NCBI GenBank assembly: GCA_018060905.1
Contig: JAGOVD010000001.1
Location: 1-50,365 of the forward strand
Direction of reading: 5' to 3'
DNA length: 50,365 bases
Origin: Minisyncoccota bacterium
GTDB taxonomy: Bacteria > Patescibacteriota > Minisyncoccia > Phycocordibacterales > UBA9973
The notes below the pieces were generated by a model. It had not been told where the DNA came from, made no database searches, and saw nothing but the letters and a program-made list of their open reading frames with translations. The position numbers were made by a program, and so were the translations under genes. Shown here in pieces: positions 6,189 through 15,838 of the stretch. The number at the start of each line of letters is the position of its first letter. Positions within the stretch are counted from its first letter, which is position 1.

Positions 6189-6488
6189 AAATATAAAAAC
6201 TAGCTTATAAAGGCTAGACGGGGTATCTGTAGATGCACAGAACCCCGCGCCAGCTCGGACTTGCGTCCACATACCAGTTTCCCGATATGACCCAACGAAG
6301 AGTAAGCTGAACGCGGGGTTCAGTATCTTCGTTGGGATTTGCGACCATATCCTTTATTTCCAAAGGGGTTAGGTCGACTAATATTTAGTTGTAGCGAAAT
6401 AGTACCATTTTGACCGATACTATTCTAGGACATTGTATCGCAGTATCACTGGATCACAGAGGAAGTTACCAACAGCTTATTTTTGAAT

Positions 6489-14402: not shown

Positions 14403-14730
14403 TTTTATATTGTAGCAAATTTTAACACAGCTCGGGCTAACTCAAACCCTACACCGTGTCACATATTAACCCCTCCTGGTCCTTCGATACTAAACTAAAC
14501 TGCTACCAACAAAGAGCTCGAACCATACCATCCGTATTGGCAGGATGAGGGTACTATTGATGCTGGCGTACCAGAGAGATACTCTAATTCATTAGAAGAG
14601 CTTTCTCGAAATTCTATCGCACGGTATCTAATGAAAAAAGTGGCTTAAGCCAGGTTCGATTCTCAAAAGGGTGCTAAAAATGGCAACCTAAAAAACCCTT
14701 TAAATTGAAGCTTCTCGTGCTAGCACGAGT

Positions 14731-15487: not shown

Positions 15488-15561
15488 GCGCGGTTAGCTC
15501 ATATGGTTAGAGCGCAGCATTGACATTGCTGAGGTGAGAGGTTCGATCCCTCTACCGTGCA
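15488..15561 (+). tRNA. tRNA-Val (anticodon GAC)
   Basis: Hand-folded: GCGCGGT acceptor, GCTC/GAGC D stem, CAGCA-TTGACAT-TGCTG anticodon arm, AGAGG-TTCGATC-CCTCT T arm, ACCGTGC-A. Followed by CC but no complete CCA. Confidence 0.9.
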
Positions 15562-15576
15562 CCCGTTTAAAAATGA

Positions 15577-15602
15577 GCCCGTTCACACGGGCAATTTTTA
15601 TT
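15577..15602 (+). terminator. intrinsic terminator after tRNA-Val
   Basis: GCCCGT-TCAC-ACGGGC followed by AATTTTTATT. Confidence 0.65.
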
Positions 15603-15745
15603 GGGTGCACGGTAAGCAGGCAACCTGCGTTGCCTGCGTGAGGGAGCGAACGCCGGAGTCATGTTTCTTCAGCAGAAGAAACAGACGAGGCGGTGCCCAG
15701 CCCGAACTGCGCGACTGGCGCAGTGAGAGGCGAGGGAGATCCCTA
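15603..15745 (+). ncRNA. candidate structured RNA, family unassigned (GC-rich multi-hairpin element 1)
   Basis: Sharp local GC rise. Perfect hairpins at 15616-15637 (9 bp), 15663-15682 (8 bp, nested in CGCC/GGCG) and 15706-15724 (7 bp). It starts with the exact complement of the tRNA-Val 3' end. Strand is inferred only from the upstream terminator context. Confidence 0.4.
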
Positions 15746-15805
15746 CTTAGTGACTAGTGACCACAAAGTTTAAAATTTCAAGTCGAAGGCGATCCCTCTA
15801 TAATA

Positions 15806-15838
15806 TAAAAAGGGGCATTACCAAACGGTAATGCCCCT
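15806..15838 (-). terminator. strong orphan terminator on the minus strand
   Basis: 12-bp perfect stem AGGGGCATTACC-AAAC-GGTAATGCCCCT. The T-run lies on the minus-strand side. There is no minus-strand ORF of 60 aa or more upstream of it. Confidence 0.55.

What the first reader, a model, noticed from the sequence alone, without database searches (positions are those of the whole stretch)
15603..15745. Element 1: GC-rich hairpin array directly behind the tRNA-Val terminator
About 140 nt that are far more GC-rich than the surrounding AT-rich island. It contains hairpins GCAGGCAAC-CTGC-GTTGCCTGC (15616-15637) and GTTTCTTC-AGCA-GAAGAAAC (15663-15682). The latter is nested in CGCC/GGCG (15651-15654 with 15689-15692) and GTC/GAC. 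A third hairpin is ACTGCGC-GACTG-GCGCAGT (15706-15724). The only ORF here (15557..15757) starts inside the tRNA and is Arg/Gly/Cys-rich junk. The element is not a tRNA, and I see no tmRNA, SRP or RNase P hallmark.
Basis: partly seen in the sequence, partly recalled or inferred. Interest (0 to 1): 0.6.

Follow-up and report, generated by a model that had tools for sequence, protein, structure and literature searches.

The report
Structured repeat cassette behind tRNA genes
The GC-rich hairpins behind tRNA-Val are one copy of a seemingly undescribed, protein-less, strongly structured repeat element of ultra-small (CPR) bacteria that sits behind tRNA and tmRNA genes and carries arms copied from the end of whichever tRNA it follows, so that it folds like the top half of that tRNA.

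Summary
All three hairpins, the nested CGCC/GGCG helix and the GC jump are at the stated coordinates, and no Rfam family matches. The stretch is one of at least four copies in this genome of a roughly 145-165-nt structured element. I found it in 32 of 51 genomes of the genus (0-11 copies each) and patchily across Patescibacteria/CPR.

In 77 of 98 copies with enough upstream sequence, a co-oriented tRNA or tmRNA (18 tRNA amino-acid identities plus tmRNA) ends within 140 nt upstream. The conserved core (HP1 plus a three-way junction) shows strong covariation: 96% of cells paired, and 31 of 35 pairs have compensatory changes.

The core is framed by an inverted and a direct copy of the 3' end of the tRNA in front, giving an acceptor/T-arm minihelix mimic. 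G-U outnumbers A-C 44 to 9, which points to the tRNA-sense strand.

No conserved neighbouring protein was found. This genome has no reverse transcriptase hit, and the element has no phage or plasmid match. I found no paper describing it.

My best reading is a non-autonomous, selfish, tRNA-like RNA cassette. Its expression and its way of spreading are inferred, not shown.

This scan had already noted the same family on other CPR genomes (e1-1542051, e1-703596). Those notes also called it undescribed.

The parts
15488..15563 (+). Host gene, tRNA-Val(GAC). Its T-loop, T-stem 3' strand and acceptor 3' strand (15541-15561) are the template of the element's arms.
   Evidence: ARAGORN; Rfam tRNA, 60.5 bits.
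15564..15602 (+). Trailer, then A-run, GC hairpin and T-run forming a bidirectional intrinsic terminator (stem 15577-15592). It is the apex of a long imperfect palindrome spanning 15553-15614.
   Evidence: Terminator scan on both strands; self-match G000:C1:15553-15614 on the minus strand; sequence.
15603..15614 (+). Inverted arm, acceptor part (GGGTGCACGGTA). 15603-15613 is the exact reverse complement of the tRNA's acceptor 3' strand, discriminator and CCC (15554-15564). It carries A where the tRNA's own 5' strand has the G of a G:U pair.
   Evidence: Sequence. An inverted copy of 9 nt or more is present in 79% of 66 family copies, against 6% with other tRNAs' ends as control.
15616..15637 (+). 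HP1: a 9-bp hairpin with a CUGC loop. It sits where a tRNA has its D and anticodon arms.
   Evidence: All 9 pairs covary and 97.9% of cells are paired.
15640..15651 (+). Inverted arm, T part (GAGGGAGCGAAC). It matches the reverse complement of the tRNA T-loop/T-stem 3' strand (15541-15552) at 11 of 12 bases.
   Evidence: Sequence; the same feature occurs in the other copies.
15651..15692 (+). Core module A: helix CGCC/GGCG, a conserved GGA/GA internal loop, GUC/GAC, and the hairpin 15663-15682 with an AGCA loop.
   Evidence: Covariation in helices 2-4; CM R1 alignment, 139.2 bits.
15693..15736 (+). Core module B: the near-invariant GGUGCCCAG, helix CCC/GGG, helix GCC/GGC, and the hairpin 15706-15724 with a GACUG loop.
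   Evidence: Helices 5-6: 10 of 12 pairs have compensatory changes.
15737..15746 (+). Direct arm, T part only (AGATCCCTAC). It copies the tRNA's CGATCCCTCTAC (15544-15555) with 2 nt missing and pairs with 15640-15645.
   Evidence: Sequence. A direct copy of 9 nt or more is present in 74% of 66 copies, against 1% in the control.
15747..15764 (+). 18-nt box TTAGTGACTAGTGACCAC, standing where other copies have the acceptor-strand copy. It is predicted to pair with the inverted arm over 12 bp with bulges. The box also closes other core types of the family.
   Evidence: MFE structure; the same box in G050, G045, G020, G009, G007 and G017 copies; a second copy in this genome at C42:2265; isolated 92-96% matches in relatives.
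15781..15800 (+). Remnant of a second cassette end: AGTCGAAGG (resembling the core's 3' end GAGTCGAGGG) followed by CGATCCCTCTA, an exact 11-nt direct copy of tRNA 15544-15554.
   Evidence: Sequence; direct-repeat scan of the genome's tRNAs.

Best explanation
The stretch is an intact-core copy of a family of small, protein-less, structured repeat cassettes of Patescibacteria/CPR. These cassettes live immediately 3' of tRNA and tmRNA genes, in the same orientation.

What is shown: each cassette has a conserved core (hairpin HP1 plus a three-way junction of two hairpin-bearing modules). The core is enclosed by two arms, which are an inverted and a direct copy of the last roughly 20 nt (T-loop, T-stem 3' strand, acceptor 3' strand) of the tRNA in front. 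The single strand in tRNA sense can therefore close into an acceptor/T-arm minihelix, with HP1 in the place of the D and anticodon arms and the core inside the 'T-loop'.

What is inferred about how it works:
1. It is transcribed in tRNA sense, either by read-through of the tRNA terminator or directly with the tRNA in copies that lack a terminator.
2. It folds into this tRNA top-half mimic and is trimmed by the tRNA-processing enzymes (RNase P at the 5' arm, RNase Z or exonucleases after the 3' arm) into a stable small RNA.
3. At the DNA level it behaves as a selfish, non-autonomous repeat. Cores and terminators are exchanged between copies by conversion tracts bounded by the near-universal T-loop box and shared acceptor ends. 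The arms are kept identical to the tRNA by template switching across two nested quasi-palindromes: tRNA end/terminator/inverted arm, and inverted arm/core/direct arm.

The window copy has lost its acceptor-strand direct copy to an 18-nt box shared with other family members.
For: Family and position:
- CM R1 finds 4 copies in this genome, behind tRNA-Val, tmRNA, tRNA-Arg(gcg) and tRNA-Asp. It finds 0-11 copies in 32 of 51 genomes of the genus.
- A pattern scan plus nhmmer finds the core in many CPR lineages.
- In 77 of 98 copies with enough upstream sequence, a co-oriented tRNA or tmRNA (18 tRNA amino-acid identities plus tmRNA) ends within 140 nt upstream. Most of the remaining copies are tmRNAs that ARAGORN missed or second units of tandem arrays.

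Structure:
- 35 pairs, 96% of cells paired, 528 double-change cells against 146 in shuffles. The covariation score is 0.70 against 0.20 in shuffles, and 0.07-0.12 when the partners are slid.

Strand:
- G-U 44 against A-C 9 on the tRNA-sense strand.

Arms:
- Host-specific inverted and direct copies of 9 nt or more occur in 79% and 74% of 66 copies. With other tRNAs' ends as control the figures are 6% and 1%.
- The inverted arm is the Watson-Crick complement of the 3' strand, not a copy of the tRNA 5' strand. The G3:U70 pair of tRNA-Val and tmRNA becomes A:U.

Concerted evolution and mosaicism:
- Orthologous tRNA-Arg(gcg) copies follow the tRNA's own T-stem change.
- Two G006 copies at different tRNAs have identical cores but different arms and HP1.

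Decay and duplication:
- A remnant in G003, tandem arrays, and a whole unit duplicated at a non-tRNA site in G056.

Patchiness with multi-copy presence:
- Only 5 of 150 evenly drawn phylum genomes have it, with 1-8 copies each, three of them 6-8.

No protein partner:
- No conserved neighbouring protein family.

Some copies have no terminator between the tRNA and the cassette, so they must be co-transcribed with it.
Against: - No expression evidence. The RNA-labelled runs gave only a few contigs of doubtful RNA origin.
- Most copies sit behind a strong terminator, which argues against abundant read-through.
- The G-U excess would also fit a folded single DNA strand.
- Processing by RNase P and RNase Z is pure inference from shape.
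- How arms for a new tRNA first arise is not explained. The one recent duplication seen (G056) carried its old arms along.
- A conserved, covarying core implies a selected function that the word 'selfish' does not name.
Confidence: 0.45

Rival explanations
1. It is a DNA-level mobile element whose functional form is a folded single DNA strand, as in IS200/IS605 ends, REP/RAYT elements, integron attC or CTX-phage attP. A host or trans-encoded HUH or tyrosine recombinase would recognise the hairpins. The inverted arm would act as a long guide that pairs with the tRNA gene's 3' end to choose the insertion point.
For: - The orientation relative to the tRNA is strict and the element lies exactly at the tRNA 3' boundary.
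- The structure is strand-specific.
- The direct/inverted/direct geometry resembles integrated CTX-type hairpin att sites (my own knowledge).
- This genome has one tyrosine recombinase and one IS200-like Y1 gene.
- The Y1 gene occurs in 18 of 21 Y1-positive genomes that bear the element, against 14 of 30 Y1-negative ones; Fisher p = 0.007.
- A whole unit was copied to a site resembling the tRNA end, GGATCAC|AAC.
Against: - The Y1 gene is flanked by its own, unrelated REP-like hairpins, which occur nowhere else in the genome.
- 14 element-bearing genomes lack the Y1 gene, among them genomes with 9, 7 and 6 copies.
- The genomes are related, so the test overstates the association.
- Known HUH guides are 4 nt long, not 10-20.
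- No circular junction or clean empty/filled allele pair was found.
Confidence: 0.22
2. It is a host cis-acting RNA element that serves the tRNA locus. Possible roles are a tRNA-like 'punctuation' or insulator that separates the tRNA from the downstream mRNA, a 3'-end protection or termination module, or a sensor that switches between pairing with the tRNA 3' end and pairing with its own direct arm.
For: - Position and orientation are fixed relative to tRNAs.
- Downstream co-oriented ORFs often start within 30-60 nt of the direct arm.
- A second terminator often follows the direct arm.
- The inverted arm can pair either with the tRNA's 3' end or with the direct arm.
- The arms track tRNA changes in orthologous loci.
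Against: - It is dispensable and patchy: 19 of 51 genomes of the genus and 145 of 150 sampled phylum genomes have none. Within a genome only some tRNAs carry it, and which ones differs between species.
- Copy number is 0-11, and there are tandem arrays, decayed remnants and non-tRNA copies. These are the marks of a repeat, not of a conserved regulator.
Confidence: 0.15
3. The repeats are attL/attR-type scars (or CIME-like leftovers) of integrase-borne islands that inserted into the tRNA 3' end. The GC-rich part would be what remains of the island's att arm.
For: - A direct repeat of the T-loop-to-3'-end piece of a tRNA or tmRNA is the classic footprint of tyrosine-integrase integration (my own knowledge; PMC9897764 on tRNA gene fragments left by integrating elements, abstract only).
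Against: - The same core occurs behind 18 different tRNA identities and tmRNA, each time with matching arms.
- An inverted copy is always present as well.
- The core shows RNA-type compensatory covariation.
- The distance between the repeats is only 140-200 nt, and no integrase is nearby.
- Some copies have no island next to them.
Confidence: 0.05
4. It is a fragment of a degraded GC-rich gene from another genome, or a chance run of hairpins.
For: The GC content is higher than in the surroundings, and an ORF of 66 aa overlaps it.
Against: - The ORF has no Pfam match.
- Conservation is by base pairing, not by codons.
- There are hundreds of homologous copies at tRNA 3' ends.
- The fold z-score is -4.8.
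Confidence: 0.01

Closest known systems
attL/attR tRNA-fragment repeats of tyrosine-integrase elements (T-loop-to-3'-end sublocation) and CIME-type non-autonomous leftovers
   Same: The same targets (tRNA and tmRNA genes). The same duplicated piece (T-loop, T-stem 3' strand, acceptor 3' strand, ending at the discriminator or CCA). The functional tRNA stays intact.
   Different: Here the unit is only 140-200 nt and has no integrase. One conserved covarying core serves 18 tRNA identities and tmRNA, each with matching arms. An inverted copy of the tRNA end is always present too.
tRNA-like structures that borrow tRNA processing (tmRNA tRNA-like domain, MALAT1 mascRNA, plant-virus 3' TLS, RNase P external-guide substrates)
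   Same: An acceptor/T-arm coaxial helix with a continuous 3' strand. The other arms are replaced by a foreign insert. The 3' end looks like a tRNA 3' end.
   Different: Processing has not been shown here. The big insert sits in the T-loop rather than between the acceptor and T stems. The helix sequence is copied from the neighbouring tRNA. The element is multi-copy and dispensable.
Bacterial non-autonomous structured intergenic repeats (REP/BIME-REPIN with RAYT, Correia/NEMIS, RUP/BOX, Rickettsia palindromic elements, IS200/IS605-derived PATEs)
   Same: Small, protein-less, hairpin-rich, multi-copy and patchy between related genomes. They sit next to gene 3' ends and terminators.
   Different: Those repeats have fixed ends. 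None carries arms templated on the flanking gene, none is tied to tRNA 3' ends, and none has a roughly 95-nt three-way-junction core with this degree of covariation.
Guide-bearing transposon RNAs (TnpB/IscB omega RNA, IS110 bridge RNA)
   Same: A conserved structured scaffold joined to segments that match the DNA at the insertion site.
   Different: No TnpB, IscB or IS110-type gene was noticed next to the copies, though those families were not searched by name. The two matching segments are complementary to each other and form a stem. The target sequence persists intact in the tRNA, so a nuclease guide would attack its own host gene. Rfam's models for such RNAs do not match.

Membership tests
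tRNA (Rfam RF00005 / ARAGORN) | Cloverleaf with D arm, anticodon arm with a 7-nt loop, and T arm with a 7-nt T-loop. | tested here: not met
   ARAGORN and Rfam call only 15488-15563 and nothing in 15603-15764. A single hairpin with a 4-nt loop replaces the D and anticodon arms, and a roughly 95-nt core fills the T-loop.
tRNA-like top-half mimic (acceptor/T-arm minihelix) | A 5' strand paired to a continuous T-stem-3'/acceptor-3' strand, ending like a tRNA 3' end. | tested here: met
   This holds for the family: the arms are complementary and equal the host tRNA's 3' end in 74-79% of 66 copies. The window copy keeps the T part and replaces the acceptor strand with an 18-nt box that still pairs over 12 bp.
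tRNA-like top-half mimic (acceptor/T-arm minihelix) | Recognition and cleavage by RNase P or RNase Z, and CCA addition. | not testable with these tools
   This needs enzyme assays or RNA end mapping. The public RNA runs gave no usable data.
Any curated RNA family (Rfam 15, 4227 models, including tmRNA, SRP, RNase P, 6S, ribozymes, HEARO, IS605-orfB, group II intron) | Covariance-model match at the gathering score. | tested here: not met
   No match at the gathering score, and no match over 15603-15764 at E up to 10 apart from an edge overlap by chance-level microRNA models. Related loci show only tRNA, tmRNA and one group I intron.
Integrase att-site scar / CIME | Direct repeat of the tRNA 3' part flanking integrated DNA. 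| tested here: met
   A direct copy is present.
Integrase att-site scar / CIME | One att sequence specific for one tRNA; an integrase or island remnant between the repeats; no requirement for a conserved RNA-type structure. | tested here: not met
   The same core occurs at 18 tRNA identities plus tmRNA. No integrase or other conserved protein is nearby. Compensatory covariation is strong.
IS200/IS605-REP/RAYT type single-strand hairpin elements | A cognate Y1 (HUH) transposase whose own flanking hairpins are the dispersed repeat. | tested here: not met
   The genome's only Y1-like gene (C4:12449-13093) is flanked by a different hairpin, which occurs only there. 14 element-bearing genomes lack the gene.
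Retroelement (group II intron, retron, retroplasmid-like) | A reverse transcriptase in the genome or next to the element. | tested here: not met
   No RVT_1 match in this 84%-complete genome, and none among the neighbours. Rfam's group II intron models are silent.
Intrinsic terminator | A GC hairpin followed by a T-run. | tested here: met
   Only 15577-15599 qualifies, on both strands. The GC-rich array itself has no T-run.

The most novel reading that the evidence does not exclude
The cassette is a new kind of mobile genetic element that needs no protein of its own. Its conserved RNA (or folded single DNA strand) would use tRNA top-half mimicry to recruit ubiquitous host enzymes that recognise tRNA ends. 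It would use arms templated on the target to home to, and be copied at, the 3' end of tRNA and tmRNA genes. The core could be a ribozyme or a guide scaffold. This would be a present-day analogue of the 'genomic tag' idea, in which a tRNA-like end marks a replicating nucleic acid.
Probability: 0.15. Interest if true: 0.92.

Novelty: categorically new. Interest (0 to 1): 0.78.

Why it matters
CPR/Patescibacteria are a very large, mostly uncultured branch of bacteria with tiny genomes in which every intergenic base is costly. Even so, up to a quarter of their tRNA loci can carry this cassette.

A conserved RNA-type fold that is framed by sequence copied from its host gene has no described counterpart that I could find. 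If it is processed like a tRNA, it is a new class of abundant small RNA. If it moves, it is a new mode of site-specific spread without an element-encoded enzyme.

There are practical consequences too. The cassettes mimic att-site scars and tRNA fragments in annotation, break assemblies at tRNA loci, and generate spurious small ORFs.

Tried and rejected
- Rfam at the gathering score and at E up to 10 on the window and on 25 related loci: only tRNA, tmRNA, LOOT and one group I intron elsewhere.
- Phage and plasmid collections (blastn, distant mode): no match. Three viral-contig pattern hits were not confirmed by the nhmmer core profile.
- Public RNA runs: only four runs with small shares and a handful of contigs, with no strand or end information. 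One 222-nt contig of a related variant spans tRNA T-arm to core at depth 20, in a library that is probably DNA. I do not count this as expression.
- Conserved neighbouring proteins: none. The largest real cluster covers 9 of about 100 loci; larger clusters are spurious ORFs across the element itself.
- The 392-aa ORF downstream as a TnpB- or IscB-like partner: only a sub-threshold DUF7178 match.
- Reverse transcriptase: none in this genome.
- Y1/RAYT link: there is a statistical association, but the hairpins do not match and many genomes are exceptions.
- CCA asymmetry (tRNA copy with CCA, direct arm without) as a sign of an RNA intermediate: 4 loci against 0 the other way. At the tRNA-Arg locus, however, the extra CA is part of the trailer palindrome and varies among orthologues, so I dropped this.
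- Loop-loop pairing between the HP1 loop CUGC and the AGCAG loop: no covariation by eye across.
- Tree of 63 cores of the genus: poorly resolved. Copies group neither by genome nor cleanly by tRNA.
- DNA-level synteny search for empty sites around tRNA-His: the species are too divergent.
- Literature: six full-text searches found no description.

Full report
**What is in the window**

tRNA-Val(GAC) lies at 15488-15563. It is followed by a trailer and a bidirectional terminator with its stem at 15577-15592. From 15603 the sequence turns GC-rich, 0.48-0.52 against 0.33-0.40 around it.

The + strand folds at -78.9 kcal/mol, z = -4.8. The minus strand folds almost as well, as expected for hairpins. 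The overlapping 66-aa ORF has no Pfam match. No Rfam family matches, even at E up to 10.

- 15603-15613 is the exact reverse complement of the tRNA's own acceptor 3' strand, discriminator and the next three bases, 15554-15564. The terminator is therefore the apex of a long palindrome.
- 15640-15651 matches the reverse complement of the tRNA's T-loop/T-stem 3' strand at 11 of 12 bases.
- After the last hairpin comes a direct copy of that T piece (15738-15746).
- This is followed by an 18-nt box, TTAGTGACTAGTGACCAC (15747-15764), which the MFE fold pairs with the inverted arm.
- A further fragment at 15781-15800 looks like the 3' end of a second cassette and carries an exact 11-nt copy of tRNA 15544-15554.

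**It is a family**

BLAST and then a covariance model (R1, built from 58 copies) find four copies in this 0.52-Mb genome. They lie behind tRNA-Val, behind tmRNA (C9; the tmRNA was called by Rfam), behind tRNA-Arg(gcg) and behind tRNA-Asp.

In the genus, 32 of 51 genomes have 1-11 copies and 19 have none.

A degenerate pattern from the core, scanned over one genome per prokaryotic species, returned more than 120 loci. An nhmmer profile of the core confirmed those from MAGs labelled Saccharibacteria, Paceibacterota/Parcubacteria and Kaiser-, Taylor-, Nomura-, Yanofsky-, Uhr-, Vogel- and Moranii-bacteria, together with a few unclassified or differently labelled MAGs (Gammaproteobacteria, Bdellovibrionales). 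It did not confirm the hits in GC-rich non-CPR genomes such as Streptomyces, nor the viral hits.

In an even draw of 150 genomes of the phylum, only 5 have the core, with 1-8 copies each, three of them 6-8. That search used strict filters, so the figure is a lower bound. The element is thus patchy, and usually multi-copy where present.

**Position**

In 77 of 98 copies with at least 230 nt of upstream sequence, a co-oriented tRNA or tmRNA (18 tRNA amino-acid identities plus tmRNA) ends within 140 nt upstream. Most of the remaining 21 copies fall into three groups:
- copies behind tmRNAs that ARAGORN missed;
- second units of tandem arrays;
- one copy whose upstream tRNA is interrupted by a run of N (L077).

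**Architecture**

From 25 and then 88 copies the order of parts is:
1. tRNA.
2. In most copies, an A-run, GC hairpin and T-run.
3. The complement of that tRNA's trailer and acceptor 3' strand.
4. HP1.
5. The complement of that tRNA's T-stem 3' strand and T-loop, ending in GAAC.
6. The conserved core.
7. A direct copy of that tRNA's T-loop 3' part, T-stem 3' strand and acceptor 3' strand. It ends at the discriminator or CCA, plus 0-3 nt.

In 66 copies, the inverted copy is 9 nt or longer in 79% and the direct copy in 74%. With the 3' ends of other tRNAs as control the figures are 6% and 1%.

The inverted arm is a Watson-Crick complement of the 3' strand, not a duplicate of the tRNA's 5' strand. 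The G3:U70 pair of tRNA-Val and of tmRNA appears as A:U, and the arm runs on into the complement of the trailer.

Short forms lack the acceptor complement, HP1 and the terminator. Other core types use the same frame, including several behind other tRNAs of this genome.

**Structure and strand**

On the 58-copy alignment, RNAalifold predicts 35 pairs, and 31 of them have compensatory changes. Counted formally:
- 96% of cells are paired, against 69% in shuffles.
- 528 cells have changes on both sides, against 146 in shuffles.
- The covariation score is 0.70, against 0.20 in shuffles and 0.07-0.12 with slid partners. None of 500 shuffles reaches the observed value.

The alignment is of related sequences, and the structure was derived from it, so these figures lean towards the structure. 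The margin is nonetheless very large. Two columns of helix 2 were also fixed by my search pattern.

G-U cells number 44 and A-C cells 9. The tRNA-sense strand is therefore the one that folds, as RNA or as a single DNA strand.

Topologically the fold is a tRNA top half: acceptor-like and T-like helices on a continuous 3' strand, HP1 where the D and anticodon arms would be, and the core in the T-loop.

**Dynamics**

- The tRNA-Arg(gcg) cassette is orthologous in five species (shared terminator) and absent from four others. Its T arms follow the tRNA's own CCTAT/CCTAC difference, so the arms evolve in concert with the tRNA.
- G002 carries two different cassettes in tandem at this locus.
- G003 keeps only a 30-nt remnant plus the direct repeat behind tRNA-Val.
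- G006 has two copies 3 kb apart, behind tRNA-Val(tac) and tRNA-Leu(gag). Their cores are 100% identical and their terminators nearly identical, but HP1 differs and the arms are tRNA-specific. The identical tracts end in the T-loop box and in the acceptor sequence that both tRNAs share.
- G056 has a complete unit with tRNA-Glu arms duplicated 900 bp away, behind a non-tRNA site that resembles the tRNA end.
- Tandem arrays occur.
- A tree of cores groups them neither by genome nor by tRNA.

Together these observations show a repeat that is gained, lost, duplicated and homogenised. They do not show how arms for a new tRNA are first made.

**Partners**

- No protein family recurs next to the copies.
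- This genome (84% complete) has no reverse transcriptase match, one tyrosine recombinase and one IS200-like Y1 gene.
- The Y1 gene is commoner in element-bearing genomes: 18 of 21 against 14 of 30, p = 0.007. However, related genomes are not independent, 14 element-bearing genomes lack the gene, and its own flanking hairpins are unrelated and unique.
- No copy is found in the phage or plasmid collections.

**Interpretation**

The family, its position, its frame, its fold and its strand are shown. Its mode of action is inferred.

I favour (0.45) a non-autonomous cassette that is expressed in tRNA sense, closes into a tRNA top-half mimic, and is handled by the tRNA-processing enzymes. At the DNA level, template switching across the two nested quasi-palindromes and short conversion tracts bounded by the near-universal T-loop box would keep the arms matched and spread the cores.

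The main rival (0.22) is a DNA-level element acting as a folded single strand with a trans-acting recombinase. A host cis-regulatory role gets 0.15, because of the patchiness and the repeat-like decay. The att-scar reading (0.05) is contradicted by the inverted arm, the many tRNA identities and the covariation.

**Comparison with what is known, and novelty**

The element shares the duplicated tRNA piece with integrase att sites, the shape with tRNA-like structures, and the lifestyle with REP/MITE-type repeats. It fails the defining tests of each (see Membership tests).

Six full-text literature searches found no description.

Earlier notes of this scan had independently described the same family on other CPR genomes as undescribed (e1-1542051, e1-703596). 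I reproduced their central claims here on independent loci.

Noticed in passing
window 6256-6375 (-): A full-length LOOT RNA (Rfam RF03000, 82.7 bits against a gathering score of 46.4).
   Followed up: no
window 15811-15838 (-): A 12-bp perfect hairpin with its T-run on the minus strand and no minus-strand gene upstream. Promoter-like hexamers on the minus strand lie at 16044-16017 and 16079-16051. This may be a small antisense or convergent transcript ending just short of the cassette (also noted in e1-3837207).
   Followed up: partly
G000 contigs C10:41460, C23:2626, C42:1968, C16:2481 (tRNA-Glu-ctc, Lys-ctt, Arg-cct, Thr-ggt): Other core types sit behind these tRNAs. One type reads NNCGGAG-hairpin-CGAGGCGG-GGUCGCGA...GUGACCAC; a further type lies behind tRNA-Thr. 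Each begins with the complement of that tRNA's last bases as an extension of the terminator palindrome. About a third of this genome's tRNA loci carry some such cassette. Parts of three downstream stretches read N (withheld).
   Followed up: partly
G000 tRNA-Gly(gcc) C27:12708, tRNA-Phe C42:2676, tRNA-Met C16:7469: Even tRNAs without a cassette are followed by unusually long perfect palindromic terminators (21-25 bp, including the A and T runs) that start at the first base after the tRNA.
   Followed up: no
G000:C4:12449-13093 (-), locus L245: An IS200/RAYT-like Y1 (HUH) transposase gene (motifs HFHLLL, Y...Q). It is flanked on both sides by the hairpin ATATAGACCTCCGAGGTCTATAT and inserted upstream of a dnaJ-like gene. 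Relatives carry 0-4 copies, each with its own flanking hairpin.
   Followed up: partly
L024:941-1205 (G061): A group I intron (Rfam, 76 bits) lies about 170 nt upstream of a cassette-bearing tRNA-Asn and not inside any called gene.
   Followed up: no
window 14654-14664 (-), about 66 nt behind tRNA-Glu(ttc): GAGAATCGAAC, the complement of that tRNA's T-loop/T-stem, may be a decayed cassette start. However, other tRNAs' ends give matches of the same length (control maximum 11), so it may be chance.
   Followed up: partly
G000:C23, about 50-85 nt downstream of tRNA-Leu(taa) (gene called at 2943, minus strand): A 17-nt direct copy of the tRNA-Leu(taa) T-arm (GGGTTCGAGTCCCGCCC) lies behind that tRNA without a recognisable core.
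   Followed up: no
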